A DNA stretch of 64,000 bases from Candidatus Dojkabacteria bacterium (GTDB lineage Bacteria; Patescibacteriota; Dojkabacteria; JAHIVN01). The notes under the pieces were generated by a model that was not told the DNA's origin, ran no database searches, and worked only from the letters and a program-made list of their open reading frames with translations. The position numbers and the translations under genes are program-made. Where the stretch lies: positions 2,553 to 66,552 of the forward strand of contig JAFGDO010000002.1 in NCBI GenBank assembly GCA_016932045.1, written 5' to 3'. Positions 9,671 to 32,196 of this stretch are shown here, one piece after another (position 1 is the first letter of the stretch; every line of letters starts with the position of its first letter).

Positions 9671-9711
9671 GTCATTCGTTTAACAATTACAATATTTTTA
9701 ATATCCAGTAA

Positions 9712-10182: not shown

Positions 10183-10272
10183 TTATTTTCCATTTATTTA
10201 AAATCCGATTTAGAAACGCAGGTAGAGTTTAATTGTGGAACTAGTATATTTATTGAAAATATCTTTTTTGAT

Positions 10273-11295: not shown

Positions 11296-12014
11296 AATAT
11301 ATCCTTGGAATACAAACTGCTGAGCTGCCTAACGAAGTTGCGCTACTTGAGTTTTCTAAGTCAAAAGTAGAAATCCCCAGAAAGTTTACTAAAAAAATAA
11401 GTACAGGGGGACAGACAATTGAAGAGTTAGGTGATTCAGTGAAAAAAATATTGGCTGAAGCTGGTATTGAACCAGAAGAAGTTGATCTAGTTTGTGTTTG
11501 TCTTGGTCCCGGTTCTTATACCGGTACAAGAGGAGGAGTAGCTTTTGCTAAAGGATACTGTCAATTTAGGGGAATTCCTCTTATTGGTGTATCTGCTTTT
11601 GAAGTTCTTGAGGAAAGTATAAAAACTATAAAAGGCATCGGAAATGTAGTTTTCATGTTGGATGCGAAAAATGAAAGAGTATTTGCTTTAAAATCAGACA
11701 GAAAATCTTTTGGGAAGATTCGGATGGACCAAGTTCGCGTGGATTCAATTGAGAATATATTGACCCCAACTAAGGAAAGAACACTTTTCCTAGGATCGGG
11801 AGCGGCTGCATATCGAGGTATTATTAATGAAGAAATTAAAAATAGAGCTGCTTTTGTTCCTGCAAAGTCGAATATCCTGAGAGCTGTAAACGTGGCAGCC
11901 AGAGGCTTAAAAAGCTATCAAAAGAATTCTTCTATATATTCAAAGGATTACTTGTTAAATATCAAACCTCTTTATATACTACCTCCCAACATTACAAAAG
12001 CGAAGAGTAAGTAG
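11292..12014 (+). CDS. tsaB: tRNA threonylcarbamoyladenosine biosynthesis protein TsaB (YeaZ)
   Basis: MKYILGIQTA...VCVCLGPGSYTGTRGGVAFAKGY...IPLIGVSAFEVL. Its ATGA start overlaps the upstream stop. Confidence 0.75.
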   Translation: MKYILGIQTAELPNEVALLEFSKSKVEIPRKFTKKISTGGQTIEELGDSVKKILAEAGIEPEEVDLVCVCLGPGSYTGTRGGVAFAKGYCQFRGIPLIGVSAFEVLEESIKTIKGIGNVVFMLDAKNERVFALKSDRKSFGKIRMDQVRVDSIENILTPTKERTLFLGSGAAAYRGIINEEIKNRAAFVPAKSNILRAVNVAARGLKSYQKNSSIYSKDYLLNIKPLYILPPNITKAKSK

Positions 12015-12023
12015 GAACTAAAT

Positions 12024-17291: not shown

Positions 17292-18752
17292 ATGCAGAAG
17301 CTCAGTCTAACGTTTAGAGGGAAAACTTTCAGAGAGTTTACGTCAACTAGGCAGATGATTGTATATTTCTTGGATCTTTTAATAAAACTTACCATCATAA
17401 CATTCTTTTGTGTTATGGGGATTGAGTATACCTTGATTGATGCAGAAAGCCCGGAACTTGTGAGATTTGTTTTTATTTATCTAGTTGCCATTTTGGTTTG
17501 GGGTTTGATCTTGATCAAGTCATTGGTGCAGGGCAGAAAAGTTTTTGGGAAAACACAGTTAGATATATATTTTATGGGGATTTTGACATTCTCACTTATT
17601 TCAGTATTATTATCAGAATATAGAACAGAAGGAGTTTTCGGATCTTTTGGAACTTGGTCTTACAGTATCATCACACTGCTTAGTATTTCAATTATCTACT
17701 ATGTTACTGTTCTTCTTTTTAAGTATCTCCGCGGTCTCAAGTGGTTGAGTGTAACATTTTTACTCTCAATTTTGTTGCCGGCTGTTTATTATGTTGTTTC
17801 AATTATAAGAGATGAGGAAACCAGCAACCTAGATTTTTTGAGGTATGCGGTTTTAGGTATTCCAATGACAATAGGTGTTCTATTTGTCTTCCGAAAAATT
17901 TGGCTAAAGATCATCACATTTATAGCTTTACTTCTAAATCTATTCCTTATTGCTTATTATTCGAATTTTCTTACAGGAGCGATGTTTGTTTTAAGTATTG
18001 GAGTCTTGACATTATTTGTGCTTTTTTACTTCTCCTTTTGGATCAAGAACGGAAATACAATAATTTCTTTTGCTCGTGCTCTTTTGGGCAAACTATTTAA
18101 TTTTTCAAATTTAAAGAACCTTGTAAAAGAGAGAAAAAGAGAATCCCTGATTTTCCTGATGGTTATACTCATGGCGCTGTGGATTTTAGGATTTACGTCA
18201 TTCAGCTTAAGGTATTTTAATCAGGATATTGGGCCTTATATCGCTGATTGGTTTAGAGAGGATTTCGAAAAATTTGAGGGAGTCAGAATGTGGATTATTG
18301 GAAAAAACGATCTTTCAACAGAATTCTCATCTTTTGAATCGATGAACATCCTGGCTAATTATGGCTTGGTTACTTTTTTGATATTTCTTTCATTTATGAT
18401 CTATGGAATATATCTATCAGGTAAGATGACTTTAAAGCTTCTATATAAGGGAAGTTTCAGGAACATTGTTTTGCTCTCAAGTATTTTTGTGACCATTGTG
18501 ACAATTCTTACTAGTTTTCTTGTCGCGAGAATGACGCCAATGGTCTATATGTTGCTTCTATTTGTATCAAGTATGGTGGCAGTGATCTATGATCTTTTAA
18601 ACGGCGGAGAAACCTACTCTTTGGAAGTTTTCGAGGACAAGCTTAGCGGTAAGGAGAAGATTATAAAAATAGTGCTATCAATTGTCATTTTTGGTACTGT
18701 TATTTTGGGCTTTGTCGGTATACTAACAGGGCTGGATAAAGGGATATTTTAG
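17292..18752 (+). CDS. Polytopic membrane protein (about 12 TM), possibly O-antigen-ligase/polymerase-like
   Basis: 486-aa ORF consisting almost entirely of hydrophobic helices. No catalytic motif recognised. Lies upstream of the surface-protein cluster. Confidence 0.4.
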   Translation: MQKLSLTFRGKTFREFTSTRQMIVYFLDLLIKLTIITFFCVMGIEYTLIDAESPELVRFVFIYLVAILVWGLILIKSLVQGRKVFGKTQLDIYFMGILTFSLISVLLSEYRTEGVFGSFGTWSYSIITLLSISIIYYVTVLLFKYLRGLKWLSVTFLLSILLPAVYYVVSIIRDEETSNLDFLRYAVLGIPMTIGVLFVFRKIWLKIITFIALLLNLFLIAYYSNFLTGAMFVLSIGVLTLFVLFYFSFWIKNGNTIISFARALLGKLFNFSNLKNLVKERKRESLIFLMVILMALWILGFTSFSLRYFNQDIGPYIADWFREDFEKFEGVRMWIIGKNDLSTEFSSFESMNILANYGLVTFLIFLSFMIYGIYLSGKMTLKLLYKGSFRNIVLLSSIFVTIVTILTSFLVARMTPMVYMLLLFVSSMVAVIYDLLNGGETYSLEVFEDKLSGKEKIIKIVLSIVIFGTVILGFVGILTGLDKGIF

Positions 18753-18929
18753 AAGCTCACTGCTCAAGTTGTTTATGTAGAATCCTCATGTACTTCTATA
18801 TACATTTCCATTTGTCTGTTGGAACTTGTTTCAAGGTTCCCTTTTTTATTTCCCGATAGATAATATAAAGATTTTTTGTTAAGAAATAATTTTTATGTTA
18901 TATTTTTATAACGTTAATATATTCTTCAA

Positions 18930-21674
18930 ATGAAAAAATCAAGAGTTTGGATTCTGTTGCTTTTTATTTTCCTAGTAGGTCTCGGCGGAGCCGCTGTATG
19001 GATCGGCTGGCGTCTTCAACAGGAAGAAGAAGTTATTCCACAGGAAAGCGAAGCTGCAGCAGGTGACCATCAATGTATAGGTTACAATAACAATCCAGAT
19101 GATTGGGGGCATGTTGATTTTTGTTTATCTGGTACGAGTACTGCTTGTAATGAAGCACAGGCAGAATACTATGCAGGGAAAGGTTGCAGAGGATGTTGTT
19201 CAAAGATGATCCCTTGTACTAAACAACAAGTTGATTATGACAATGATTACAAAGTAGTCGTATACGGTCCTAATCCTGGTGGAGGAGAGTGGTGTAGGGA
19301 GTATCTACCGGGAGATGATGGGAGTCGGAAGTGTGGACGAGACACGCCTGATCCTGATACTTGGGACTGGACAAATTGTACTGTGTGCGATGATGTCCAA
19401 GCGGAATGGGATTTTGATTCGCAGCCCGGGAAAGTTGTTTTAAGAATTACAAGTGCAGCTATGCACGATATGGACAATATAAATAGCTCACATAATCAAG
19501 ATGATGTGCCAGCGATAATGTCAAAGCAAAGAATGAGAGTCGAAATAAATAGATATGACGCAGGGGGCAATGTCATAGGTTCAGCACAGAATATCTCAGG
19601 ACAATTAGAGTTCTTACCAGATAATTGTTCTTTAACCTATAAACTTGGGAAAAGTAACGCTGGTTGCAACTATGGGAGAGACTGTGCTATTGATCCGAAC
19701 GATCTTTGTTGTGATGGAAATGGCCCGCGATGGGGAACGTGGAATGGGGGCTATAGGTGTAATTTATCAAATACTAGAGAATACACCTTCGATGTTGATC
19801 GCAACGCAGATAGTTATGGATATACTTTCTATGTAGAGGGTTTTAGTCCATTTACCAACTCACAGTGGAAGACGGCTGATACTTGCAAGGGGTTTGTGGA
19901 TGCACCTGAGCAGTTTAATTGCGGAGATCCCTGTACAAATCCTCAGGGATCTTGTGATGACGGGAGTAATTGTATTGATCTTAGAGATATTATTCCAGCA
20001 GGAGAAGAAGCTTGTGATGGATATGTGTGTTGTGTAGGAGATGATTTCATTGATGAATTTGGTAATGTGAATTGTCCTTTCAGCGAACATGTAGCTAGTG
20101 GATGTAGATGTCTTGAAACTATTCAGTGTGACAGTATGTCCTCACCTCAGGCAGTTGGAGATACTATCACGGTGCAGCAGGAGGGTGATACATTCGTGAT
20201 TACAGTACAGGGAACAGATGGTGATGGAACGATCAGACAGATCTCCATATGTTCAGCTGTTGCAAATCAGCCAGATGAGTATTATCGGAGGGGACTAGAG
20301 GTATGGAATTGTGAGGAAACTCAATCTGCTGATAATACTTTTACAATTACTCGAACTTATGCATCATTAGTCGACGGTCAGGGTGATGATGATGTTTTAA
20401 ATCCTGATGGACTGGATATTAGTGCAAACAGCATAGTGTTCGCAGCTAATTTATGGGATGAGCCGGATAGAAGTATATTTTGCTCATCAAATCCAGGCTA
20501 TGGCGATACATCTCATGGTATTTTATATGGGAATTATTGTTCTCAGGATCCTGCCGCTTGTGACCTGTGTAACTTAGGAACAAATAGCTGTAGGATGATT
20601 TTACAACTGGCAGAAGAAGAGTGCGATTGTACTTCGATCCAGAGAAGTCCTAGTGGTGATACGATTGCCCCAGGAAGTAATGTATGGGTTCAAGTTACTG
20701 ATTCTTGTGAGATAGGCTATAGTGAAGTCGAATGGTTTTGGAGCGAAGGAGAAACTGGTACGCCTCAGCAGACGAACTTCAGTGATAGGATACCTGGGCC
20801 AAGTGATGATCCTGAGCTGAACCATAGCGTGATTTTTTCCGTTCCCGTAACAGCAAGCGGGACAATATGCATTTGGGCACGAACTCAAGGTGAGGATGAT
20901 CCTGATTGCCGGGATTGTTTTAATATTGGAGGCGAAGAGGAACCAGCTTACGCAGCAGTAAAGACGAGCGAGATGGTATGTATAAATAATAATAGTGCAG
21001 CAAGGATAACATATAGAATTCATGTAAGGAATATATCAGGAGTAGTAGGTACAATTGATTATGTAGAAGACACATATGATTCAAGGATACAAACAAGCTG
21101 GGTAAGCGGTATAAGCCCGCTTCCATATGAGCACACAGGAAACGTGATAAGGTGGGATAATAATGATACTGGATATGTCCTGCAGCCAAATGATGGTGCA
21201 GCTGGTGGAGCAGATGAGATAGAGTTCAGCTATATAGTGACAGTACCATCAGAATATTTTGGCACGTGGGAGGGAGGAGTATTTGTACCGTATCAGTATA
21301 GGAATCATGCTGTCGTCAAGCCGAGAGACGAGGAACCCATAGAACTGGCAACAGTAGTAAGTATTCAATGTGCCGTCGGTACAGGTATTTTTAGCAGTGC
21401 AGTGAAGGATATGTTAATTGGTCTAATACTTATTCTGCTTGGATTGACTATGATAAGGATACATGAAAGTACCTATAAATACCTTATACCAATAGAATAT
21501 GCATATAAAGAGAGTGTTATAGGTCTGAAAAATGGTGTAAATATGGTTAGAACTGAATGCAAAGCTGTACTAGATAAGTGTAAAACGTTTGTGTTTGAGA
21601 GGTTTAAGCTTACAAGCAAAGAAAGATTTGAACGTAAAATTGTAAGAAGAGCAGAAAAGAAAAAAGGGACCTAG
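18930..21674 (+). CDS. Giant Cys-rich surface protein (914 aa) with N-terminal signal-anchor, DUF11-like C-terminal module, C-terminal TM helix and basic cytoplasmic tail
   Basis: N-terminus MKKSRVWILLLFIFLVGLGGAAVWIGWRL. More than 60 Cys in the ectodomain. C-terminal TYRIHVRNISG...DYVEDTYD resembles the DUF11 conserved repeat. Then a TM helix IGLILILLGLTMI and the tail ...SKERFERKIVRRAEKKKGT. Confidence 0.6.
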   Translation: MKKSRVWILLLFIFLVGLGGAAVWIGWRLQQEEEVIPQESEAAAGDHQCIGYNNNPDDWGHVDFCLSGTSTACNEAQAEYYAGKGCRGCCSKMIPCTKQQVDYDNDYKVVVYGPNPGGGEWCREYLPGDDGSRKCGRDTPDPDTWDWTNCTVCDDVQAEWDFDSQPGKVVLRITSAAMHDMDNINSSHNQDDVPAIMSKQRMRVEINRYDAGGNVIGSAQNISGQLEFLPDNCSLTYKLGKSNAGCNYGRDCAIDPNDLCCDGNGPRWGTWNGGYRCNLSNTREYTFDVDRNADSYGYTFYVEGFSPFTNSQWKTADTCKGFVDAPEQFNCGDPCTNPQGSCDDGSNCIDLRDIIPAGEEACDGYVCCVGDDFIDEFGNVNCPFSEHVASGCRCLETIQCDSMSSPQAVGDTITVQQEGDTFVITVQGTDGDGTIRQISICSAVANQPDEYYRRGLEVWNCEETQSADNTFTITRTYASLVDGQGDDDVLNPDGLDISANSIVFAANLWDEPDRSIFCSSNPGYGDTSHGILYGNYCSQDPAACDLCNLGTNSCRMILQLAEEECDCTSIQRSPSGDTIAPGSNVWVQVTDSCEIGYSEVEWFWSEGETGTPQQTNFSDRIPGPSDDPELNHSVIFSVPVTASGTICIWARTQGEDDPDCRDCFNIGGEEEPAYAAVKTSEMVCINNNSAARITYRIHVRNISGVVGTIDYVEDTYDSRIQTSWVSGISPLPYEHTGNVIRWDNNDTGYVLQPNDGAAGGADEIEFSYIVTVPSEYFGTWEGGVFVPYQYRNHAVVKPRDEEPIELATVVSIQCAVGTGIFSSAVKDMLIGLILILLGLTMIRIHESTYKYLIPIEYAYKESVIGLKNGVNMVRTECKAVLDKCKTFVFERFKLTSKERFERKIVRRAEKKKGT

Positions 21675-21775
21675 TTGTTATTTCCTCACAAGGCAAATTG
21701 ATCATCTATGCACTTTTTTTCTGACGCATCTTATGTTATATTATCGGCATAGTAAATATTCGTATATTTTCTACG

Positions 21776-22903
21776 ATGAAGAGATCTAGAATTATCATGC
21801 TGGTTATCCTTTTTATAACCCTTATACTTGGTGGAGTAGCGATATGGCTGGGCTTGAGACTCGGGAAAGAAGAGGAAGTAACTCCAGAGGAAAGTGAGGC
21901 TGCATCAGAAGAGGTAACTAATGCTGATACGCTTAAAACTCAGGCGCAAAGAGAAGAATTTAACAGAAAATGGCAGACGTTTATTGCAGATGAAACTAAA
22001 ACTTGGAGGGACTATGTTGAATATGCAATGGGGGAAGGAGCTAGATACGAATGCACAAGAGTTATAATGAGTAATGTGGGAGCTGAAAGCCTCTATGGCT
22101 GTGATTTAAATGCGCTATTTGTTATTTATGATTTGCCAACCTATATTTCTACTCAGCCGATTGGTCCTCAGGATCCGAATTTAAATGCAGTACTTAATGA
22201 ACTGATAACTGACTCGGGTCTTCTGCAGAAAGCTGCTGAGATGGATATAATTACATTAGATGAGACATTTTTCAATTCCCCATCAAAAGATATGTTTGAA
22301 AGGTTTAGTAAGGTAGAAACTGCAAGGGTAGCCATAGGTGATCAGTTTGTGAAGCGTGTTGATTTTGAGGCGGTTGTAATTTACTTTCACAATGAATATG
22401 ATCCACAAATTCCTCTTGAGCAGGCGAAAGAAGCGGCAAAGACAAAGATGGATATTCTCTACGGGCGACTGGAGACAGGTGAAATCACGATGAGACAGGC
22501 AGGAGAAGAAATCATAAATGATAATATTCAAGGTGATACTACTGGAGTATCTCTGACTCAACTTGATCGATTGTACAAAGAGAATGCTTATATAGAAGTT
22601 ATAGGTCATGAGTTTGGGGAGAGAATTTTTAAAGATGAGGTTTATGATGAGGAGCTGCGAAGTCTTGGCGAAGGTCAGATGAGTACAGTAAGACTCTGCA
22701 AGGATTATAAATTTACCCCGGAGGAGTTATTTGAGGCAAATGGTGAGACTACTGAATTTCCACTAGTTGATAGCTGCTATATAATTTTTAAAGTAAATAA
22801 AATAACTTTTGGGCTGGGAAGAGAGTTTTCAGGAGATACATTGGAGGAGGTAGAAGATAGTATACAAGATAATTACGACCAAGCAGTGGACTATAATCTA
22901 TGA
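21776..22903 (+). CDS. Membrane-anchored/exported protein (375 aa) sharing the N-terminal anchor module of the 914-aa protein
   Basis: N-terminus MKRSRIIMLVILFITLILGGVAIWLGLRLGKEEEVTPEESEAA is paralogous to residues 1-45 of the 18930 gene. The rest is acidic and soluble. Confidence 0.5.
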   Translation: MKRSRIIMLVILFITLILGGVAIWLGLRLGKEEEVTPEESEAASEEVTNADTLKTQAQREEFNRKWQTFIADETKTWRDYVEYAMGEGARYECTRVIMSNVGAESLYGCDLNALFVIYDLPTYISTQPIGPQDPNLNAVLNELITDSGLLQKAAEMDIITLDETFFNSPSKDMFERFSKVETARVAIGDQFVKRVDFEAVVIYFHNEYDPQIPLEQAKEAAKTKMDILYGRLETGEITMRQAGEEIINDNIQGDTTGVSLTQLDRLYKENAYIEVIGHEFGERIFKDEVYDEELRSLGEGQMSTVRLCKDYKFTPEELFEANGETTEFPLVDSCYIIFKVNKITFGLGREFSGDTLEEVEDSIQDNYDQAVDYNL

Positions 22904-25446
22904 ATCATTTAAAAAATAAAACAATTTGTTTCATCTTTTTGTGTTTAGGAATTCTTGTATTCTCGTTTTTTCTTGTTATAAAGCCGAGTCCTGTATCTGC
23001 CGGTTCTGTACTTGATCATGAGTTTTATATAGAGATACCTACAGGTCGAAGAGTACCATTACAAGGAGCTTCGGTACATTCTGTAGGAGTTGATAATTAT
23101 GGTCAATGGGGGAATAAAGACTACATTACACGTTCAAATTATTGCGGTTATGGTAGTGCTGCAGGAGGAGCCCACTGCAGGACAAAAGCATCTTGCGATC
23201 ATTGGGGATATCATGCTCCATTTCTTCCAAAAAGTTACAATAGTGCATCAGACGTCTATACGCCAAGAGCGGATGTATATGGGTGGTGCGGGAATTTAGA
23301 TGCATCACATGCGCATTTCTATAATGGTCAAACGATGACACAGCGATTCCCTTGGTTTCCCTTTGAAAATGGGAATCCAAGAGGTTCGAGTACTTCATAT
23401 TGGACTGCTGAGATAGTTTCGCAGCAGAATAATAAGCTTCAATTATGGGGTAAAGCTCAGCCGGATGACCATGAAGCACGTAAAGCGACTGATGATTGCA
23501 GAAGAACGGACGAACGGGAAACTATATTGCAGGAATGGGGTAGATTAGACGATTTCCCGAACAAAGCTTCTTGGAAGCAGGGAGAGATTGTTTACGATGG
23601 AGTCGGAGGGAATGCTCTTCATGGAACCGTAAGATGGATTCTTCATGAAACACAGACTGTGTCAGACCTCAAGATAAGTGGCAAGGTTTATTGCCAAGAT
23701 GATGGAGATCCTACTCCTTATCCTGTTAATGGTGCAACTGTTTCTATATATAAAGATGGTGTGAAAGAAACTGTAGATGTTGCAACGAATGAAAGTGGAA
23801 ACTTTTCATATGATGCAAGATCATATGAGGGAGGTTTTGCTGTCAGATTTAAGAATTTACCAAGTGGGACTTTAAGAACCGGACTACCATATGATCAGAT
23901 GGTTGGTCCAACAGCTGTAAATTGTGCTAGTGGCGTTGTAACGGGTTGTCAAGAAGGTTCTCCTCCGGGAAGTTTCTGTGGGACGAACAATTTATCTTAT
24001 GAGTATTGCGGTCTTGGTAGTGGCAATCATTCAGGATTTGATTTCAGATATACTAATTGTTCAGCAGGATTGGTTTGTGAAAATTTGGCTTCAGATATTG
24101 ATCTTACCTCTATTAGCGAAGATGACTTAAGGGCGGAAGATATGGAAATTGCTATATCTGCAGAGATGAATGCAAATAATGTATCTGTAAGTTCAACTGG
24201 TGCCTATACTTATTACACAAACATCCCGGGTGCCTATTTCGCTGGTGATCCTGCTAATACTGGAAGCTATACAGATGGTCCAAATACGACAATTACAATT
24301 CCGGCAGGTACAAGTATTAGCGATGAAGACTACTTTGTCAGTGTAGTTATCCAGGGTAGCATAGGTTCAACTAATTATGCTTCTGGCTGCTATTCGACTG
24401 GAAATTGTGTACAAGGAGGTGAGAATTGTATTTTAGCATTTCAGCCTACAGCAGGAACGTGTGATTGCAGGAGTATGTCAGTTAGTCCTGATCCAACTAC
24501 AGTAAATCCTGTTGCTGGTTCAAATATTGTCTACCAGATAAATATTGCCGATACGAATGGAGTCCCGTGTAATGTAGAGGACAGTGAAATAAATTGGGAA
24601 GTATATGAGGGTAGTCCGACACTTGAAGTTATCGAGAGAGGTCCAACAACTGTTCCCGGGAATCCCGGACCGACTCACTATATTATATACAGAATTCCCG
24701 ATGGAGTTCCCGAAGGAACCCAGTATTGTGTCCGTGCCGAAGTGGATAATTTTGGAGTAAGAGAAGCGTGTAATGCTTGTTTTACGACAGGTACTGACGA
24801 GGTGCCTCTATTTGTTGCAGTAAAGACAAGTGAAGTTGTTTGTATTAATAACAATACAGCAGCACGAATTACTTATCGTATAAGAGTAAGAAATATATCG
24901 GGAATGGAGGGGATAATTGATTATGTTGAGGACACCTATGATTCAAGGATACAAACTAGTTGGGTGAGCAGTATTAGTCCGACTCCCTATGATCATACGG
25001 GGAATGTAATTAGGTGGGATAATAATGATACCGGATACACATTACAACCAAATGACGGAACTACGGGTGGAGCGGATGAGATGGAGTTCAGTTATATTGT
25101 GACAGTACCATCAGAATATTTTGGTACGTGGGAAGGTGGGGTATTTGTACCGTATCAATATAGGAATCATGCTATCGTCAAGCCAAGAGACCAAGGTCAG
25201 ATTGAACTCAGTACTGTTGTACAAATTCAATGTGCGGGTGTTACTACCGGTATTTTTGACAAAGCATTGACAAGTGTTTTGATAGGACTATTACTAGTTA
25301 TGTTTGGAGGAGTATTGCTAAAAGCTGATAGTTATGTTTATAGGTTCGTGCCTCAATTCAATTCTTATATTAAAAAAGTTATTCCTAGCAGGAAAGAAAG
25401 ATTTGAGAAAAAAGCGATAAAGAGAGTAGATGAGGGGGAGAAGTAG
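22900..25446 (+). CDS. Giant Cys-rich surface protein paralog (848 aa), signal peptide plus DUF11-like C-terminal module plus TM plus basic tail
   Basis: The C-terminal roughly 150 aa are about 85% identical at protein level to the 914-aa protein (VKTSEVVCINNNTAARITYRIRVRNISG...FGTWEGGVFVPYQYRNHAIVKPRD). TM helix LIGLLLVMFGGVLL and tail ...PSRKERFEKKAIKRVDEGEK. Confidence 0.6.
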   Translation: MNHLKNKTICFIFLCLGILVFSFFLVIKPSPVSAGSVLDHEFYIEIPTGRRVPLQGASVHSVGVDNYGQWGNKDYITRSNYCGYGSAAGGAHCRTKASCDHWGYHAPFLPKSYNSASDVYTPRADVYGWCGNLDASHAHFYNGQTMTQRFPWFPFENGNPRGSSTSYWTAEIVSQQNNKLQLWGKAQPDDHEARKATDDCRRTDERETILQEWGRLDDFPNKASWKQGEIVYDGVGGNALHGTVRWILHETQTVSDLKISGKVYCQDDGDPTPYPVNGATVSIYKDGVKETVDVATNESGNFSYDARSYEGGFAVRFKNLPSGTLRTGLPYDQMVGPTAVNCASGVVTGCQEGSPPGSFCGTNNLSYEYCGLGSGNHSGFDFRYTNCSAGLVCENLASDIDLTSISEDDLRAEDMEIAISAEMNANNVSVSSTGAYTYYTNIPGAYFAGDPANTGSYTDGPNTTITIPAGTSISDEDYFVSVVIQGSIGSTNYASGCYSTGNCVQGGENCILAFQPTAGTCDCRSMSVSPDPTTVNPVAGSNIVYQINIADTNGVPCNVEDSEINWEVYEGSPTLEVIERGPTTVPGNPGPTHYIIYRIPDGVPEGTQYCVRAEVDNFGVREACNACFTTGTDEVPLFVAVKTSEVVCINNNTAARITYRIRVRNISGMEGIIDYVEDTYDSRIQTSWVSSISPTPYDHTGNVIRWDNNDTGYTLQPNDGTTGGADEMEFSYIVTVPSEYFGTWEGGVFVPYQYRNHAIVKPRDQGQIELSTVVQIQCAGVTTGIFDKALTSVLIGLLLVMFGGVLLKADSYVYRFVPQFNSYIKKVIPSRKERFEKKAIKRVDEGEK

Positions 25447-25646: not shown

Positions 25647-25718
25647 TGAGGGCGAGAGGACTCGAACCTCCAACCTAACGGTTAAGAGCCGTTTGCTCTA
25701 CCATTGAGCTACGCCCCC
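25647..25718 (-). tRNA. tRNA-Lys (anticodon CUU)
   Basis: The reverse complement folds as a cloverleaf. Acceptor GGGGGCG/CGCCCUC (one G-U). D arm GCUC-AAUGGU-AGAGC. Anticodon stem AACGG/CCGUU with loop CUCUUAA. T arm GGAGG-UUCGAGU-CCUCU. Discriminator A. CCA not encoded. Confidence 0.8.
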
Positions 25719-25876: not shown

Positions 25877-26026
25877 ATACTATGCTAAAGCTTCATATGG
25901 TAAACCTAAGCCTCTACTTTCATGATCAATAATCAATTTTCAATTAGAAATGAATAATTTTAGATTAGTAATTATTCACTCAGTAACGTAATAAGAGAGC
26001 AAGTATATCACAACTCCTTTAATTTC

Positions 26027-26100
26027 TGCACCTGAGAGGATTCGAACCCCTAACCCCTCGTTCCGAAGACGAGTGCTCTATCCAGTTGAGCTACAGGTGC
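26027..26100 (-). tRNA. tRNA-Arg (anticodon UCG)
   Basis: Acceptor GCACCUG/CAGGUGC. D arm GCUC-AACUGGAU-AGAGC. Anticodon stem CUCGU/ACGAG with loop CUUCGGA. T arm AGGGG-UUCGAAU-CCUCU. Discriminator A. Confidence 0.8.
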
Positions 26101-26321
26101 AATACAACACCACTATCCATAGATTATATTTAAATGTGACCTCAAACTCAAGAAAAGGAGCTTTAAAAAAGAGGTCTCATAGGATATGGTGGTGTAAAAT
26201 TAAGTTGTATTTTCGACAAAAAATTCTGAGCAAAGTTGACATCATCCATATAAACTGCGATATTATATAGATACACAAATAATTCTTATTTTTTTAAAAT
26301 TTAAGTTTTGAATTTTGCTTT

Positions 26322-27773
26322 ATGAAGAATTATTTTAGAGAAATATGGGGAGTTCTTACGAAAGCCTCGTATGCGGAAAATGTAAGCAATCAGAGACATT
26401 CGCGTTTGCTGGCAACTTTGTTAACACTTGTCATTCCTGTAGGACTCGTTCTAACAGTATTTCCTGGATTGACGCTTTATGGTAGTACAATGGAGATTAT
26501 TGTATCTCTAATTGTACTTGTGTCGTCATTTTTGTTGGTTTTAGGATACATTCTTAGTACCTCAGTTAGGCATTCTCAGATTACTATCGCAGTAATAGGG
26601 CTGTGTTCCTTTGTCATCATAAGTGCAGCTTTGGTTGATATAAATCTTCTTCCTTTTCTTGTCGTACCGTTACTTCTTAGTGCTATATTCCTTTCGGCTA
26701 AGGTGACTATCATACTGATGTTTCTAAATCTTGTCGGAGTCCTTCTAGTGCCAACATATATCTTAGGAGGAACTATAAGTACAAAGATATTCTGGGTTTT
26801 TAGCTTCTTATTGGTAGCATCTTTCTTATTACTCAATATTATCCGTTATAGAACACGTCTCGAACAAAGCCATAGACAGCTCATGACTGAGGGGAAAAGA
26901 CAGTTTACATCAGTTGCTCAGAAGACAAAGGATGCAATTATTACTATTGATGCAATTGGTAAGGTTATCTCATTTAATAAAGCTGCAGAGGATATATTTA
27001 AGTACTTGAGCGAAGATATTCAGGGTTCACATATTTCAGAACTATGCCCCCAGATTCCTGAAAAGTTTCCTAAAGACCATACAATAAAAATTGAGGAAAG
27101 GGGAGAGATAAAAATTACCGATATTCTTGATAAAACGCTTGAGCTTAACGGAAAACGAAGGGACGGAGGGGTATTTCCGATAATGATCTCACTAGCATCT
27201 TGGAAGACTGAAGATGGCTTATTCTATACTGTGATAGTAAGAGATCTATCAGAAAAGAGAAAGATGGAGCAAGAAATAATTGTCGAAAAGGGTAAGGCAC
27301 AACTGTATCTTAGTGTGGCCGGTGTAATAATTGTAGTACTTGATAAGGATTTGAAGGTTGTCCTTATTAATGAGAGGGGAAGTGAGATACTGAAAATTGA
27401 ACCTAAATCTGCAGTAGGGAGTGAATGGGTGGGTAACTTTATTGCCGAAAGAGACAGGGGGAAAGTGGACTCTATTCTAAGGCAAATTTCAGAAGGAGCA
27501 GAAGGAGTACCGGATAAATTCGAGAGTGCGGTTGTCACAAGGGATCATCAGCTAAGAGATGTTTCTTGGCATATAGGAGTGTTAAGAGATGATCGGGACA
27601 ATGTTTCGGCTGTAGTTTTTTCAGGTGAAGACATTACTGAAAGAAAACTTATGGAGAAGAAATTAAAGGCAAGAAATAAGGAACTTGAAAAGTTAAATAA
27701 AGCTATGGTTGGAAGAGAGCTTAAAATGATTGATCTTAAAAGAAGGATCAAAGATTTAGAGGATAGGGGCTAA
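26322..27773 (+). CDS. Membrane sensor protein with multi-TM N-terminal domain, PAS domains and C-terminal coiled coil; no kinase or other output domain
   Basis: About 6 TM helices, then PAS-like segments (ITIDAIGKVISFNKAAEDIF...; VLDKDLKVVLINERGSEIL...) and a terminal KELEKLNKAMVGRELKMIDLKRRIKDLE coiled coil. Confidence 0.55.
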   Translation: MKNYFREIWGVLTKASYAENVSNQRHSRLLATLLTLVIPVGLVLTVFPGLTLYGSTMEIIVSLIVLVSSFLLVLGYILSTSVRHSQITIAVIGLCSFVIISAALVDINLLPFLVVPLLLSAIFLSAKVTIILMFLNLVGVLLVPTYILGGTISTKIFWVFSFLLVASFLLLNIIRYRTRLEQSHRQLMTEGKRQFTSVAQKTKDAIITIDAIGKVISFNKAAEDIFKYLSEDIQGSHISELCPQIPEKFPKDHTIKIEERGEIKITDILDKTLELNGKRRDGGVFPIMISLASWKTEDGLFYTVIVRDLSEKRKMEQEIIVEKGKAQLYLSVAGVIIVVLDKDLKVVLINERGSEILKIEPKSAVGSEWVGNFIAERDRGKVDSILRQISEGAEGVPDKFESAVVTRDHQLRDVSWHIGVLRDDRDNVSAVVFSGEDITERKLMEKKLKARNKELEKLNKAMVGRELKMIDLKRRIKDLEDRG

Positions 27774-27795
27774 TCTTATAATACTAAAGATCCTT

Positions 27796-28884
27796 CTAAG
27801 CTAGTGGAACCGTAAAGCTAAAAGTAGAACCTTTTCCAAAGATACTTTCAACTTTGATCTCACCTTTTGACTTTGTGATTATTTCCTTACAAAGATAAAG
27901 TCCAAGTCCTGTACCTTCAATATCTCTTGTTTCGTCACTTTCAACCCTTCCGAATTTTTGAAAAAGCTTTTTTAAATCTACTTTTTTGATACCTATGCCA
28001 GTATCTGTTATTGAAACTTTTGCGTGATTTTTCAATGTCTCGAGTTTTACAGTTATTTTCCCCTTTTCTTTATTGTATTTTGTTGCGTTGCTTAGAAGAT
28101 TTATAAGGACCTGTTTAATTCTTTGCTGATCTGCTAGTACAGTAACTTTGCCTGGGGGATCATAATTAATCGCGATGTTTTTTGTTTTAAAAACTGATTG
28201 CATTTCTTCTATTGTACTCTTTATTATTATATCTAGGTCAAAGTCAGCGGGTACAATTTTTATTGTTCCAGCTTCGATTCGTGCCACATTTAAAAGATCA
28301 TCTACTAATGTAATTAATCTTTCATTGGAAGATTGAATCTGCTGTAAATGACTATAGAGTTCCGGATTTATATGATCCTTACCCTCTTCTAGTGTAATTT
28401 CTAGTGCCCATTTTATCGCAGTGACAGGGGTTTTCAGTTCATGTGCAGCAATGAATACGAACTGATCTTTGAGCTTTTGTATTTCTTTTTCGTGTTTTAT
28501 TGCAAGTGAATGGGCCTTTTCAAGTTCTGCGGTTCTCTTTTTTACAAGCACCTCTAAATTTTCATAGAAGGCTTGAAGTTCAGTGGCTTCTTTTTCCCAC
28601 CCCTTCATTGCTTTATAAACAATATTAATTGCGATTAGAAAAGTAAGGAATGCGAAGATTACTGTATAGTACCATGGTAAACATATCATGTAGGCTGTTG
28701 ATACGATACCGAGAGAGTACATCCCAAATAACCAGCCAAACACCGTTGGTATAATTAATTTCCCGATAACTGTACCTTTGAGACTAGAATAGAATGAATA
28801 ACCTCTTTTTACTATAAGCACCGACATTAATATAAGAACTGGCCATCCTATGCCCAGTATTAAGTATTTAAGTATTTGTTCCAT
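27796..28884 (-). CDS. Sensor histidine kinase (membrane-bound)
   Basis: H-box FIAAHELKTPVTAI, N-box NLLSNATKYN, G1 DTGIGI and G2 GTGLGLYLCKEII. N-terminal TM helices. Confidence 0.8.
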   Translation of the reverse strand: MEQILKYLILGIGWPVLILMSVLIVKRGYSFYSSLKGTVIGKLIIPTVFGWLFGMYSLGIVSTAYMICLPWYYTVIFAFLTFLIAINIVYKAMKGWEKEATELQAFYENLEVLVKKRTAELEKAHSLAIKHEKEIQKLKDQFVFIAAHELKTPVTAIKWALEITLEEGKDHINPELYSHLQQIQSSNERLITLVDDLLNVARIEAGTIKIVPADFDLDIIIKSTIEEMQSVFKTKNIAINYDPPGKVTVLADQQRIKQVLINLLSNATKYNKEKGKITVKLETLKNHAKVSITDTGIGIKKVDLKKLFQKFGRVESDETRDIEGTGLGLYLCKEIITKSKGEIKVESIFGKGSTFSFTVPLA

Positions 28885-29966: not shown

Positions 29967-31451
29967 ATGAAGAAGAGAGTATATATCATTCTTCCAGTTA
30001 TCCTTCTGTTTGTGTTTATTTTTGGGGGTATAGCATCTTTGTTTGGTGAGCGAGTATTTGTTTCTATTTGGCGACGGATAAGGGGGCTTGCAAAAGATGT
30101 TCAGGCTGAACTTAAACCAACATCAAAAGTTTATACTGTCCAACAAGACGGGCTCACTTTCAGTGTGCAGTTGGGAAATGACGAAATTTCGGCTGTAAAC
30201 GGGAAAGCGTATATGCTTGTTACTCTTGAGGGAGAAGAACTGTTAGTTCAAACTCTTGAAGAAAGACCGCCACTTAACCTTGCAATTGTAATTGATAAGA
30301 GCGGATCTATGGATGGAGACAAGATTGAGTATGTAAAGAAAGCCGTCATAGAGGCACTAGGTAAGTTGAACGAAGGGGACAGTATTACAATTGTTACATA
30401 TAGCACTGACTTTCAAACAATCTATCGCTACTCTCCAAGACAAGACGCTTGTTTGGATGATTGGTATGTATCTTGTGAGTTTGATAGACAACAGCTTATA
30501 GAAGAAGTGAGCAGTATTACTAGTGGGGGCAGTACCTATCTGGAAGGTGGACTAAAAGAAGGGCTTAGGTGGGTGAATTTGGAAGCGGAACGTAGAGGTC
30601 AGGAAAATCGTGTCATTCTTCTTTCAGATGGTCTTGCAAATGTCGGAGAGTCCGATCCTTATGAACTTGCAAGTATAGTCGAAAAACTGGTTGGGGACTC
30701 AGTAACTGTTTCAACAATTGGCGTTGGAGCTGATTATGATGAGAAGCTTATGACTATGGTTGCAAAGTCTGGCCGAGGAAATTATTACTTTCTTGAGGAT
30801 CCGAAAGATGCTGAAAGAATTTTTACTCAGGAATTTGATACTGCGCTAACAACTCTGGCAAAAGATATACGTGTAAATTTTAATTTAAATGAGGAATTTG
30901 TTATTGCGAAAGGACTTGGATACGAATTTGATACAAGAGGATATTTTGAGCCGTATGATATCTATGCCGGCAGGAAAGTAACTTATCTCTTTGAGCTTAG
31001 TGCAGTTGATGCTGGAAGACTACAATCAGGGGAGATGATGCTTGCTGATCTGGAAATTGATTTTACAAGGACAACGGATAATAGTGTTGAGACTATTGAT
31101 GTGCCGATTAGCATAAATGTGATAAAATTTGGGTGTGACGCTCTAAAAGACGATATTGTGTATGATGAGTACATTCAGGCGCTTGTCTCTGATAAATTAT
31201 GGGTTGTGTACGAACAGTTAGATAAGTCTGATAACAGTGGTGCAAACTTAACTATCGACGAATTATTGAAAGAATTGAAGGTAGCCAATTCACGACTTAC
31301 AGGTAGGTATGACGAACAGATAAGGCAGCTCGAAGAGAAACAAGGATATATTACCGATCTGAAAGATGAGTATATTAATGACAGCGAAACAGGAAGGAAC
31401 TTTCAGAAATCGAATCAGCTAGAATCGTATGAAAAGAAGTACAATAAATAG
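29967..31451 (+). CDS. von Willebrand factor type A (VWA) domain protein, membrane-anchored
   Basis: N-terminal TM helix. MIDAS motif DKSGSMDGDKI, followed by T and D residues (GGSTYLEGGL; LLSDGLANVG) of a VWA fold. Confidence 0.75.
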   Translation: MKKRVYIILPVILLFVFIFGGIASLFGERVFVSIWRRIRGLAKDVQAELKPTSKVYTVQQDGLTFSVQLGNDEISAVNGKAYMLVTLEGEELLVQTLEERPPLNLAIVIDKSGSMDGDKIEYVKKAVIEALGKLNEGDSITIVTYSTDFQTIYRYSPRQDACLDDWYVSCEFDRQQLIEEVSSITSGGSTYLEGGLKEGLRWVNLEAERRGQENRVILLSDGLANVGESDPYELASIVEKLVGDSVTVSTIGVGADYDEKLMTMVAKSGRGNYYFLEDPKDAERIFTQEFDTALTTLAKDIRVNFNLNEEFVIAKGLGYEFDTRGYFEPYDIYAGRKVTYLFELSAVDAGRLQSGEMMLADLEIDFTRTTDNSVETIDVPISINVIKFGCDALKDDIVYDEYIQALVSDKLWVVYEQLDKSDNSGANLTIDELLKELKVANSRLTGRYDEQIRQLEEKQGYITDLKDEYINDSETGRNFQKSNQLESYEKKYNK

Positions 31452-31530: not shown

Positions 31531-32193
31531 TTGAACATACTAATAATTGAAGATAATAAGAAATTAGCAGAGAATATCAAAAGCGTACTTAAGAGTGAGA
31601 ATTACAATGTTGAGATAGCTTTGAAAGGAGAGGAAGGTTTGGAGAAAATTTTAACCGGTTCTTACAATCTCGTTATACTTGATCTTGCTCTTCCAGACAT
31701 AGATGGTATTGAAATTTGTAGAAGGTTGCGAAAAAAAGGTGTGAGGACTCCGATTCTTATGCTAACTGCAAGAATTGATCTCGAATCAAAAGTTGAGGGT
31801 CTTGATTGCGGAGCTGATGACTATATCACTAAGCCTTTTGATATGGAAGAATTATTGGCTCGTATAAGGGCGCTTCTTAGGCGTAATTCAAGGATGAAAT
31901 CCTCTACTATAACTATTAACGATTCTGTGCAAGTTGATCTGGCTGAAAAAAGTGTGAAAAAAGCCGGAAAAAAGATTAGGCTTTCACCGATGGAGATGCG
32001 TATAATTGAATTCTTACTGATAAATAGAAATAAAGTCAAGAATGCTTCGGAAATATACGAACATGTTTGGGGATGTCATGATTCTGATATCCTATTTTCA
32101 GATTCTTTAAAGGTTCATGTTTCAAGAATTAGGAAAAAGTTAGGTGGCAATACAATTAAAACTGTAGGAGGATTTGGATATTTAATTGAATAG
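31531..32193 (+). CDS. Response regulator, OmpR/PhoB family (receiver plus winged helix)
   Basis: TTG start. Receiver motifs ILIIEDN, DLALPDIDG and LMLTAR. C-terminal trans_reg_C-like LSPMEMRIIEFLL...VHVSRIRKKL...GYLI. Confidence 0.85.
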   Translation: MNILIIEDNKKLAENIKSVLKSENYNVEIALKGEEGLEKILTGSYNLVILDLALPDIDGIEICRRLRKKGVRTPILMLTARIDLESKVEGLDCGADDYITKPFDMEELLARIRALLRRNSRMKSSTITINDSVQVDLAEKSVKKAGKKIRLSPMEMRIIEFLLINRNKVKNASEIYEHVWGCHDSDILFSDSLKVHVSRIRKKLGGNTIKTVGGFGYLIE

Positions 32194-32196
32194 AAA

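What the first reader, a model, noticed from the sequence alone, without database searches (positions are those of the whole stretch)
18930..25446. Mosaic three-gene cluster of Cys-rich giant surface proteins with a conserved DUF11-like-TM-'KERFEKK' C-terminal cassette and a separately shared N-terminal anchor
Seen directly: the last roughly 200 aa of the 914-aa and 848-aa proteins are near-identical at protein level (VKTSE(M/V)VCINNN(S/T)AARITYRI(H/R)VRNISG...FGTWEGGVFVPYQYRNHA(V/I)VKPRD), whereas their DNA differs mostly at synonymous sites. That pattern indicates an old duplication kept under purifying selection. Both follow the module with a TM helix and a cytoplasmic tail sharing (S/R)KERFE(R/K)K(I/A)(V/I)(R/K)R. 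The 914-aa and the 375-aa middle gene share a different, N-terminal module (MK+SR...LGG(A/V)A(V/I)W(I/L)G(W/L)RL...EEEV(I/T)P(Q/E)ESEAA). The 848-aa protein instead has a classical signal peptide. So N- and C-terminal targeting cassettes are shuffled among paralogs. Conserved intracellular tail motifs suggest recognition by a sorting or anchoring machinery. The ectodomains have more than 60 Cys each, implying extensive disulfides (oxidising, extracellular) and adhesin-like or host/partner-contact function. Neither terminal motif is one I recognise (it is not LPXTG or PEP-CTERM).
Basis: partly seen in the sequence, partly recalled or inferred. Interest (0 to 1): 0.7.

Follow-up and report, generated by a model that had tools for sequence, protein, structure and literature searches.

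The report
Candidate-phylum surface proteins with variant LPXTG-type anchor
Two surface proteins of an uncultured Dojkabacteria (candidate phyla radiation) bacterium share a strongly conserved cross-linkable stalk domain and an unusual LPXTG-derived membrane anchor with a long conserved cytoplasmic tail. The gene between them is not a third adhesin but a PrsA/SurA-like folding helper, so this is a new variant of a known kind of surface-protein anchoring.

Summary
The three ORFs and the quoted motifs are real, but several descriptions are wrong. Cys counts are 46, 4 and 25, not more than 60 each. The 375-aa middle gene is a membrane-tethered protein with a SurA/PrsA-like fold, paired in 7 independent contigs with a downstream protein carrying the N-domain of the 848-aa protein.

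The shared C-terminal module is a divergent DUF11 ("CLIPPER", CnaA-like) domain with a conserved Lys-Asp-Asn isopeptide triad. The two copies are 86% identical in protein and 79% in DNA, with dN/dS about 0.06.

The module belongs to a Patescibacteria family of at least 178 cluster representatives. The family ends in [LIV]-P-x-T-G-[IL]-[FL]-D, a TM helix and a basic tail of about 40-70 aa ending in ..[KR]xFE[KR][KR]. So the cassette is LPXTG-derived. In the window's subclade the Pro is replaced (AVGTG, GVTTG).

The "N-terminal anchor" is also family-wide (TM-WR[LV]xQ-EEEV[AT]PE[DE]SEA).

Domain-by-domain nearest neighbours disagree. The DUF11 module was homogenised between the two paralogs, and the 848-aa protein is a chimera.

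Whether a sortase cleaves at T|G or the anchor is permanent is unresolved. No sortase was found in the window or in 22 related loci.

The parts
18876..18904 (+). Promoter-like site with an extended -10 element upstream of the 914-aa gene. It contains the 12-mer TTATGTTATATT (18893-18904).
   Evidence: The same exact 12-mer occurs only once more in the window, at 21731-21742 upstream of the 375-aa gene. A terminator-like hairpin at 18821-18840 closes the upstream gene.
18930..21674 (+). 914-aa surface protein (GenBank MBN2015289.1, annotated 'hypothetical protein'). Architecture: N-terminal anchor, Cys-rich ectodomain (46 Cys), Ig-like domain, DUF11/CLIPPER domain, AVGTG-IFS junction, TM helix, 69-aa basic tail.
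18930..19061 (+). N-terminal cassette of the 914-aa protein: MKKSR, a 22-residue hydrophobic segment ending WIGW, then RLQQEEEVIPQESEA|A.
   Evidence: The pattern is family-wide: TM, W-R-[LV]-x-Q, acidic stretch, then P at -6, a small residue at -3 and A at -1.
20622..20945 (+). Ig-like beta-sandwich domain (aa 565-672) that precedes the DUF11 module.
   Evidence: The AF2 model has pLDDT 85-93 here. The domain is 70% identical to P0001, P0007 and P0008 but only 30% identical to the 848-aa protein.
20955..21374 (+). Divergent DUF11/CLIPPER (CnaA-like) domain, aa 676-815. The predicted isopeptide triad is K678/D714/N792, and C684/C814 form a near-invariant Cys pair.
   Evidence: with PMC12617251.
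21372..21395 (+). Junction A-V-G-T-G-I-F-S. This position is [LIV]PxTG[IL][FL]D in the wider family.
21396..21464 (+). C-terminal TM helix (aa ~823-845).
   Evidence: Helix at model residues 298-320, and hydrophobicity read from the sequence.
21465..21671 (+). Basic cytoplasmic tail (aa 846-914). It carries the juxtamembrane motif R-x-H-x-x-TYKY-L-x-P and the terminal motif KERFERK (21618-21638).
21731..21742 (+). Second copy of TTATGTTATATT, 34 nt upstream of the 375-aa gene. It looks like a -10 element.
21776..22903 (+). 375-aa membrane-tethered protein with a SurA/PrsA-like fold (JW766_00455). It has the N-terminal cassette (aa 1-44) followed by a chaperone/parvulin-like body. Its stop codon overlaps the start codon of the next gene (ATGA).
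22900..25446 (+). 848-aa chimeric surface protein (MBN2015291.1). Architecture: cleavable signal peptide, conserved ~265-aa N-domain, a weak sub-threshold Pfam match to prealbumin-like families (CarboxypepD_reg, SdrD_B; aa 266-327), Ig-like domain, DUF11/CLIPPER domain, GVTTG-IFD junction, TM helix, 41-aa tail.
23002..23799 (+). N-domain of unknown function (aa ~35-300, motif ..DHxFYIxxPxG..). In other genomes this domain is always encoded directly downstream of the foldase-like gene.
   Evidence: It has no Pfam or PDB sequence match.
24817..25236 (+). DUF11/CLIPPER domain of the 848-aa protein (aa 640-779). The triad is K642/D678/N756.
25237..25260 (+). Junction G-V-T-T-G-I-F-D.
25264..25320 (+). 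C-terminal TM helix (aa ~789-807).
   Evidence: Read from the sequence, using the alignment.
25321..25443 (+). Basic cytoplasmic tail containing KERFEKK (25393-25413).

Best explanation
This is a surface-protein locus of a Candidatus Dojkabacteria (Patescibacteria/CPR) bacterium.

The two large genes encode disulfide-rich cell-surface proteins. Their variable outer domains sit on a conserved membrane-proximal anchoring cassette made of:
- an Ig-like domain;
- a divergent DUF11/CLIPPER domain that probably locks itself with an intramolecular Lys-Asn isopeptide bond (K678-N792, catalysed by D714) and a Cys684-Cys814 disulfide;
- an LPXTG-derived junction (family consensus [LIV]PxTG-[IL][FL]D; here AVGTG-IFS and GVTTG-IFD);
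- a TM helix;
- a 40-70 aa basic cytoplasmic tail ending in KERFE[KR]K.

I read the cassette as a variant sortase-type sorting signal. The protein is exported and held in the membrane by the TM helix and tail. It is then most likely cut between T and G and passed to the cell wall. The conserved G-IFD-TM-tail fragment acts as the retention and recognition element, and possibly as a signal left behind in the membrane.

The middle gene is a membrane-tethered protein with a SurA/PrsA-like fold that acts as a private foldase. It is translationally coupled to the 848-aa gene, whose N-domain is its conserved partner.

The 848-aa protein arose by fusion of that partner domain to the family cassette. 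Its DUF11 module was later homogenised with that of the 914-aa neighbour.

Shown: the architecture, the homologies, the conservation and the gene pairing. Inferred: formation of the isopeptide bond, sortase cleavage, the role of the tail and foldase activity.
For: Organism and annotation.

DUF11 membership:
- 44 of 75 family members hit PF01345, best E 9.4e-25.
- P0035 hits DUF11 at residues 522-613 with 47 bits against a cut-off of 24.6. That lies within the stretch matched by the window-derived profile.
- The AF2 model shows two beta-sandwich domains at pLDDT 85-95.

Isopeptide triad: K678 is conserved in 98/100 sequences, D714 in 99/100 and N792 in 100/100. They lie in the first, third and penultimate strands. 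This is the arrangement described for CnaA-like domains, and 9IFR has K715/D748/N806 (PMC12617251).

Junction logo over 121 members: P at -3 in 96, T at -1 in 107, D at +3 in 105; a median of 68 residues follow the TG.

Tail: the F-E pair lies about 10 aa from the C-terminus and the net charge is +6. E901 is conserved in 90/100 sequences.

Sortase use in this genome is implied by a canonical LPETG + TM + short basic tail on the delta-60/DUF5122 protein at 33576-35480. More than half of CPR genomes have a sortase, and the disulfide-forming MdbA/VKOR families are enriched in CPR (PMC6744442).

Foldase-like gene: the AF2 model has pLDDT 87, and the top 19 Foldseek PDB hits are all SurA, PrsA, PpiD, CBF2 or YacD. 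The pair 'foldase gene followed by N-domain gene' is found in the window, L009, L010, L011 (twice), L013, L016 and L017. The stop and start codons overlap.

Mosaicism.

A cleaved LPXTG C-peptide acting as a membrane signal has a precedent in Streptococcus gordonii, as cited in PMC11502775.
Against: - The two window proteins lack the Pro of LPXTG.
- The tail is several times longer than a classical sorting-signal tail, and residues after the presumed cut site are conserved. A transient signal does not require either feature.
- The NCBIfam LPXTG_anchor model (TIGR01167) does not match the window tails. It gives only sub-threshold scores for family members, and also for the canonical LPETG protein of the window.
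- No sortase was found in the 64-kb window or in 22 related loci. The methods were a TLxTC regex, phmmer with S. aureus SrtA recalled from memory, and precomputed Pfam lists.
- The window proteins do not hit Pfam DUF11 directly.
- The foldase assignment rests on fold similarity with modest scores (E 6e-4, TM 0.2-0.3). There is no Pfam hit and the hhalign comparison with PrsA is not significant.
- The 914-aa protein has a long hydrophobic N-terminal segment that may not be cleaved. A cell-wall-linked product would then stay doubly attached.
Confidence: 0.45

Rival explanations
1. The cassette is a permanent membrane anchor and the LPXTG-like junction is only a relic. The proteins stay as integral membrane proteins: the 914-aa protein with both ends in the cytoplasm, the 848-aa protein as type I. 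The conserved basic tail (YTYKY.. and KERFE[KR]K) binds a cytoplasmic or inner-leaflet partner. This would couple the surface protein to cell-internal structures, localisation or signalling.
For: - The tail has a median of 67 residues after the TG. It has conserved positions (F900 in 76/100, E901 in 90/100), and the motif sits a fixed ~10 aa from the C-terminus.
- The residues IFD after the would-be cut site are conserved.
- The Pro is lost in the window's subclade.
- There is no nearby sortase.
- The N-terminal hydrophobic segment is 22 residues long, which is anchor-like.
Against: - T818 is conserved in 98/100 sequences (G819 in 78/100 of that alignment), and Pro is at the LPXTG position in 79% of members. 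Both sit exactly at the boundary between ectodomain and TM. That is hard to explain without a sortase-type site.
- The three parts of a sorting signal are all present in the canonical order.
- A canonical LPETG substrate in the same window shows that the organism probably uses a sortase.
Confidence: 0.35
2. The N- and C-terminal motifs define a new sorting system unrelated to LPXTG, with its own dedicated exosortase-like machinery, and the cassettes are shuffled freely among three paralogous adhesins.
For: - No Pfam or NCBIfam sorting-domain model matches either end.
- Both motifs recur together: 62 of 114 full-length members have both.
- The 375-aa and 848-aa proteins each carry only one of the two.
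- The searched literature did not describe these motifs.
Against: - The junction is plainly LPXTG-like in most members.
- The middle gene is not an adhesin paralog.
- No candidate machinery gene is linked in the window or in 22 loci.
- The N-terminal motif fits an ordinary signal-peptidase site: P at -6, a small residue at -3 and A at -1.
Confidence: 0.12
3. The similarity of the two C-termini is a trivial by-product: a recent gene conversion, a recent tandem duplication or an assembly artefact.
For: The two DUF11 modules are each other's closest relatives (86% identity, against 76% or less to any other member). A second genome (L004) has a paralog pair with 88% aa identity and pS of only 0.38. 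Homogenisation between neighbours therefore does happen.
Against: - DNA identity is 79% and synonymous sites are saturated. pS is 0.66-0.71, as high as between genomes.
- The longest identical run is 26 nt.
- Both genes are intact, and both exist as separate GenBank proteins on a 134-kb contig.
Confidence: 0.03

Closest known systems
DUF11 / CLIPPER domain (Pfam PF01345): CnaA-like intramolecular isopeptide domain of fibrillar adhesin stalks (PMC12617251; PDB 9IFR)
   Different: The window copies are too divergent to hit the Pfam model directly. There is one membrane-proximal copy rather than tandem repeats. The domain carries an extra ~20-aa loop (..QPNDGAAGGADE..). It is flanked by a near-invariant Cys pair and is fused to a specific junction, TM helix and tail.
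Gram-positive cell-wall sorting signal (LPXTG, hydrophobic segment, basic tail) cut by sortases. This includes class E sortases, which accept LAXTG (own knowledge).
   Same: The order of parts and their position at the C-terminus are the same. The wider family has [LIV]PxTG in 79% of members and T at -1 in 88% of 121 members. The tail is positively charged. A canonical LPETG protein lies in the same window.
   Different: The window proteins have V, not P, at the second position of the pentapeptide (AVGTG, GVTTG). The residues after G (IFD) are conserved. The tail is 40-70 aa rather than about 5-10, and it has conserved motifs. TIGR01167 does not match. No sortase has been identified.
C-peptide signalling of sortase substrates: the membrane fragment left after LPXTG cleavage is sensed by a histidine kinase in Streptococcus gordonii (as cited in PMC11502775)
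   Same: It is a precedent for the post-cleavage TM-plus-tail fragment having a function of its own. That would explain conservation downstream of the cut site.
   Different: This is purely an analogy. No partner kinase has been identified. The histidine kinase and PAS genes downstream (26322-28884) are not shown to be linked.
PrsA (Firmicutes) and SurA/PpiD extracytoplasmic foldases, and private steric chaperones such as the lipase-specific foldase Lif (own knowledge)
   Same: The 375-aa protein has a predicted fold whose best PDB matches are all SurA, PrsA or PpiD family members. It is membrane-tethered and faces outward. It is encoded immediately upstream of, and overlapping, a conserved secreted partner.
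   Different: There is no sequence-level match: no Pfam hit and hhalign probability 0.2%. It is tethered by an N-terminal TM segment rather than a lipid. The parvulin catalytic residues are not clearly kept.
YSIRK-G/S signal peptide combined with LPXTG in staphylococcal and streptococcal surface proteins (own knowledge)
   Same: It combines a conserved, unusually long N-terminal export signal with a C-terminal sorting signal on the same proteins.
   Different: The motif differs (WR[LV]xQ..V[AT]PE[DE]SEA) and lies after, not before, the hydrophobic core. Neither cleavage nor a targeting role has been shown.

Membership tests
DUF11 / CLIPPER (PF01345) | Direct match of the Pfam HMM at or above the gathering score | tested here: not met
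   The 914-aa and 848-aa proteins have no DUF11 hit at E<=1 and no TIGR01451 hit.
DUF11 / CLIPPER (PF01345) | Homology to proteins that do pass the model, over the same region | tested here: met
   44 of 75 family members hit DUF11 (best E 9.4e-25). P0035 hits at residues 522-613 with 47 bits against a cut-off of 24.6. That lies inside the stretch matched by the window-derived profile at E 6.4e-18.
DUF11 / CLIPPER (PF01345) | CnaA-like Ig-type beta-sandwich fold resembling the solved CLIPPER domain | tested here: met
DUF11 / CLIPPER (PF01345) | Lys (first strand), catalytic Asp and Asn (penultimate strand) triad | tested here: met
   K678 is conserved in 98/100, D714 in 99/100 and N792 in 100/100 sequences. 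Strand positions come, and the reference pattern from PMC12617251. Bond formation itself cannot be tested with these tools.
Sortase substrate (LPXTG cell-wall sorting signal) | LPXTG (or LAXTG) pentapeptide at the C-terminal end of the ectodomain | tested here: not met
   The window proteins have AVGTG and GVTTG. The wider family meets the feature, with P at that position in 96 of 121 members and T in 107 of 121.
Sortase substrate (LPXTG cell-wall sorting signal) | Hydrophobic membrane-spanning segment directly after the motif | tested here: met
Sortase substrate (LPXTG cell-wall sorting signal) | Short, positively charged C-terminal tail | tested here: not met
   The tail is positively charged (net +6) but is 41 and 69 aa long here. 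The family median is 67 residues after the TG, and the tail carries conserved motifs.
Sortase substrate (LPXTG cell-wall sorting signal) | Match to NCBIfam TIGR01167 LPXTG_anchor | tested here: inconclusive
   The window tails give no hit. P0075 scores 13.2 bits and the window's own canonical LPETG protein 11.1 bits, both below the 15.9 cut-off. The model is therefore insensitive in this lineage.
Sortase substrate (LPXTG cell-wall sorting signal) | A sortase encoded in the genome | not testable with these tools
   Only 64 kb of the genome is available. There is no sortase in the window or in 22 loci. A canonical LPETG substrate in the window and the CPR-wide prevalence of sortases (PMC6744442) suggest that one exists.
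PrsA / SurA / PpiD foldases (for the 375-aa protein) | Sequence match to the SurA_N or Rotamase (parvulin) models | tested here: not met
   There is no Pfam or NCBIfam hit. No PDB sequence hit was found with the 36-sequence profile. hhalign against B. subtilis PrsA (sequence recalled from memory) gives probability 0.2%.
PrsA / SurA / PpiD foldases (for the 375-aa protein) | Chaperone-plus-parvulin fold | tested here: inconclusive
   The AF2 model has pLDDT 87. The Foldseek PDB top 19 hits all belong to this family, but with E 6e-4 to 0.3 and TM-scores of 0.2-0.3.
PrsA / SurA / PpiD foldases (for the 375-aa protein) | Extracytoplasmic location, tethered to the membrane | tested here: met
   It has a single N-terminal TM segment preceded by a basic MKRSR stretch, and the rest of the protein is predicted to lie outside. 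The tether is a TM segment, not the lipid anchor of PrsA.
Exosortase/archaeosortase-type C-terminal signals (PEP-CTERM, PGF-CTERM, GlyGly-CTERM and others) | Signature motif, TM helix and short Arg-rich cluster, with a match to the corresponding NCBIfam model | tested here: not met
   No such model matches the window proteins or 75 family members.

The most novel reading that the evidence does not exclude
The N-terminal TM-WR[LV]xQ..V[AT]PE[DE]SEA element and the C-terminal [LIV]PxTG-[IL][FL]D-TM-..FE[KR][KR] element together define a previously undescribed, Patescibacteria-specific protein-sorting class. Its members would be handled by a dedicated sortase or a cytoplasmic partner that reads the long conserved tail. 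After cleavage, the G-IFD-TM-tail fragment would persist as a functional membrane peptide, for example as feedback on surface-protein display. Such a system would mark the set of host-contact proteins of these episymbionts.
Probability: 0.2. Interest if true: 0.7.

Novelty: new variant of a known kind. Interest (0 to 1): 0.45.

Why it matters
Patescibacteria (CPR) bacteria live attached to other microbes, and how they display and anchor their host-contact proteins is largely unknown.

This locus gives a compact sequence signature shared by at least 178 protein clusters that are all annotated as hypothetical. The signature is a CLIPPER isopeptide stalk domain, a variant LPXTG junction, a TM helix and a conserved basic tail, plus a conserved N-terminal signal. 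It could be turned into HMMs to list the candidate surface proteome of these organisms.

The locus also yields directly testable predictions:
- cleavage at T|G;
- a K678-N792 isopeptide bond;
- a binding partner for the tail;
- a private PrsA-like foldase for a conserved secreted domain.

It also shows module-limited concerted evolution and domain fusion shaping these proteins.

If the anchor turns out to be an ordinary permanent TM tether, the finding is only a modest annotation improvement.

Tried and rejected
1. Direct Pfam and NCBIfam scans of the three proteins gave nothing useful.
2. PDB sequence searches found no relevant hit. The queries were the cassette profiles, the foldase profile (39), the 848-aa N-domain profile (93) and the 914-aa ectodomain (94).
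4. The third large homolog search, using the N-domain of the 848-aa protein, returned nothing. It did not even return the query protein, so this was a tool miss and is not evidence of absence.
5. The sortase hunt found nothing. It used a TLxTC regex, phmmer with S. aureus SrtA recalled from memory, and the Pfam lists of neighbouring genes. Two attempts to extend the window with its end genes failed because the exact products are not on record.
6. hhalign of the foldase family against B. subtilis PrsA was not significant.
7. I tested whether the N-terminal motif is a second sortase site. Five members have PETG there, but the loose pattern P.[TS]G is not enriched over background (7 observed against 4.3 expected). 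I dropped this as a claim.
8. The NCBIfam GVDTG_CTERM model surfaced once, but on an N-terminal TM segment at E 1.6, so it is spurious. A literature search for GVDTG found nothing relevant.
9. Recent gene conversion was rejected on DNA divergence.
10. The 486-aa polytopic membrane protein upstream, which is syntenic in L001, has no family match even at E<=5.

Full report
**What is there.** Three + strand ORFs occupy the stated coordinates: 18930-21674 (914 aa), 21776-22903 (375 aa) and 22900-25446 (848 aa). They are GenBank proteins MBN2015289.1, JW766_00455 and MBN2015291.1. All three are annotated 'hypothetical protein' and lie on a 134-kb contig of a Candidatus Dojkabacteria MAG. Related loci come from Dojkabacteria and other Patescibacteria MAGs. 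The first gene has its own promoter-like site with an extended -10 element, after a terminator-like hairpin. An exact 12-mer, TTATGTTATATT, occurs only twice in the window, upstream of the first and second genes. The second and third genes overlap by ATGA.

**Checking the observation.** The 914-aa and 848-aa proteins align over their last ~376 aa at 48% identity. Within that stretch a 140-aa core is 86% identical in protein but 79% in DNA. 64 of 89 differences fall at third codon positions, dN is 0.094, dS is about 1.6 and dN/dS is about 0.06. Synonymous sites are as saturated as between different genomes (pS 0.71). The similarity is therefore old and maintained by selection. The Cys counts are 46, 4 and 25, not more than 60 each. 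The 375-aa protein shares only a ~45-aa N-terminus with the 914-aa protein (51% aa identity, 63% nt identity).

**The conserved module is a DUF11/CLIPPER domain.**
- The window proteins do not hit Pfam DUF11 directly.
- A profile of the C-terminal half found 178 cluster representatives at E<=1e-3 among 1.84 billion proteins, 61 of them at E<=1e-10.
- 44 of 75 scanned members hit DUF11, with best E 9.4e-25. Where checked, the hit lies in the homologous region and above the curated cut-off.
- AlphaFold2 models residues 567-811 as two beta-sandwiches at pLDDT 85-95.
- DUF11 was recently shown to be a CnaA-like domain with a Lys-Asn isopeptide bond catalysed by Asp, K715/D748/N806 in 9IFR. The Lys sits in the first strand and the Asn in the penultimate strand (PMC12617251).
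- In this family K678, D714 and N792 are conserved in 98, 99 and 100 of 100 sequences. They sit in the first, third and penultimate strands.
- C684 and C814, at the two ends of the domain, are conserved in 99 and 98 of 100 sequences.

An isopeptide-locked, disulfide-stapled stalk domain explains the very low dN.

**The C-terminal cassette is LPXTG-derived.** I aligned the boundary between ectodomain and TM helix in 121 family members. The logo is [LIV] at -4, P at -3 (96/121), T at -1 (107/121), G, then [ILV], [FL] and D (105/121). A TM helix follows, and a median of 68 residues lie after the TG. The tail has net charge +6 and an F-E pair about 10 residues from the end, in the context [KR][KR]x[KR]FE[KR][KR][VL][VI]K. 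E901 is conserved in 90/100 sequences.

A syntenic locus from a related genome carries three tandem cassette-bearing genes downstream of recJ, a DUF2085 gene, glyA, folD and a 488-aa membrane protein gene. Two of them have junctions CLPPTGMFD and TLPPTGIMD; the third, split from an upstream N-anchor ORF, has LCLGTGFFD.

In the window's own subclade the Pro position is mostly Val: AVGTG, GVTTG, GVPTG, LVPTG.

The cassette differs from a classical sorting signal in three ways. The residues after G are conserved. The tail is several times longer. The tail carries conserved motifs. TIGR01167 does not match the window tails. It is also sub-threshold on the window's own canonical LPETG protein (33576-35480), so that test is uninformative.

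No sortase gene was found in the window or in 22 related loci. Sortases and disulfide-forming enzymes are nevertheless common in CPR (PMC6744442).

**The N-terminal element is family-wide.** Of 114 members with an intact N-terminus, 80 have a long hydrophobic segment followed by W-R-[LV]-x-Q, an acidic stretch and V-[AT]-P-E-[DE]-S-E-A. 62 have both the N-terminal and the C-terminal elements. The search pattern forced the final A and the small residue two positions before it. P at -6, a small residue at -3 and A at -1 look like a signal-peptidase I site. However, the site lies ~15 residues beyond a 22-residue hydrophobic core, so cleavage is uncertain.

**The middle gene.**
- The 375-aa protein has 40 homologs at 34-62% identity and no Pfam family.
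- Its AF2 model has pLDDT 87. The 19 best Foldseek matches in PDB are all SurA, PrsA, PpiD, CBF2 or YacD, at modest scores.
- Sequence-level tests are negative.
- Its orthologs are immediately followed, often with overlapping codons, by a gene whose first ~265 aa are homologous to the N-domain of the 848-aa protein. This holds in L009, L010, L011 (twice), L013, L016 and L017.
- Those partner proteins end differently. One ends in a canonical LPETG signal, and the others have no anchor.
- Only the window's 848-aa protein combines this N-domain with the DUF11 cassette.

I read the 375-aa protein as a membrane-tethered private foldase for that domain.

**Mosaic history.** Per-domain nearest neighbours disagree.

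| Region | 914-aa vs 848-aa identity | Nearest relatives |
|---|---|---|
| Ig-like domain | 30% | 914-aa protein: P0001, P0007, P0008 (70%) |
| DUF11 module | 86% | each other; next best 76% |
| Junction + TM | 40% | 848-aa protein: P0007 (70%) |

A second genome (L004) shows the same module-level similarity between neighbouring paralogs (88% aa identity, pS 0.38). This points to DUF11-limited homogenisation between tandem paralogs, or to coevolution with a shared partner, superimposed on a domain fusion. It is not a simple old duplication.

**Mechanism.** The firm conclusions are the architecture, the topology (basic ends inside, Cys-rich part outside) and membership of a Patescibacteria-specific family that occurs in tandem arrays. 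My preferred reading is a variant sortase-type signal cut at T|G, with the conserved G-IFD-TM-tail part acting as a recognition or retention element or as a residual membrane signal. There is a precedent for a signalling C-peptide (PMC11502775). I give this reading 0.45. The main rival is a permanent anchor whose tail binds a cytoplasmic partner, at 0.35. The data here cannot separate the two. The decisive tests are listed under next steps.

**Verdict.** It is best classed as a new variant of a known kind. It is of moderate interest, mainly as a handle on the surface proteome of CPR bacteria.

Noticed in passing
window 33576-35480 (-): A 634-aa delta-60/DUF5122 beta-propeller repeat protein ends in a canonical LPETG + TM + short basic tail. 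This genome therefore carries two distinct classes of LPXTG-type C-termini.
   Followed up: partly
window 17292-18752 (+); L001 6981-8447: A 486-aa polytopic membrane protein has no family match even at E<=5. It sits directly upstream of the surface-protein array in both the window and the syntenic locus L001 (folD, membrane protein, array). It may be functionally linked, for example in glycosylation or export.
   Followed up: partly
window 18893-18904 and 21731-21742 (+): The exact 12-mer TTATGTTATATT occurs only at these two places in 64 kb. Each copy lies ~26-45 nt upstream of a start codon (the 914-aa and 375-aa genes). It looks like a shared extended -10 promoter element.
   Followed up: partly
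window 25647-25718 (-) and 26026-26101 (-): tRNA-Lys(CTT) and tRNA-Arg(TCG) genes lie on the opposite strand immediately downstream of the 848-aa gene.
   Followed up: no
window 26322-28884 and 31531-33522: A cluster of signalling genes lies just downstream: a PAS-domain membrane protein, a histidine kinase, a response regulator and a second kinase-like protein. A secreted VWA-domain protein lies at 29967-31451. No link to the surface proteins was shown.
   Followed up: no
L004 ORFs 9284-10996 and 11067-13115 (DUF11 modules from 10328 and 12249): Two neighbouring paralogs in another Patescibacteria genome have DUF11 modules that are 88% identical with pS of only 0.38. This is a younger instance of the same module-level homogenisation.
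   Followed up: partly
P0007, P0008, P0020; L003 2637-5396; L004 11067-13115: In a few family members the N-terminal juxtamembrane motif ..PEESEA is replaced by IPETG, TPETG, LPETG or PPETG. This is intriguing as a possible second sortase-like site. However, the loose pattern is not enriched over background (7 observed against 4.3 expected).
   Followed up: partly
L011 (= L014), JGI contig Ga0180432_10000252: The pair of foldase-like gene and N-domain gene is tandemly duplicated. It sits in the middle of a type IV pilus gene cluster: T2SSE, T2SSF, prepilin peptidase and pilins upstream, and PilM downstream.
   Followed up: no
L009 13235-17125: Downstream of a Dojkabacteria foldase/surface-protein cluster lie two NPCBM-domain proteins. 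One has a weak hit to a PMT-type glycosyltransferase, which hints at glycosylation of surface proteins.
   Followed up: no
914-aa protein aa 843-860 and homologs (alignment A1): A second conserved tail element lies right after the TM helix: R-x-[HR]-x-Y-T-Y-K-Y-[LVM]-x-P. It is present in about half of the close family members. Its function is unknown.
   Followed up: no
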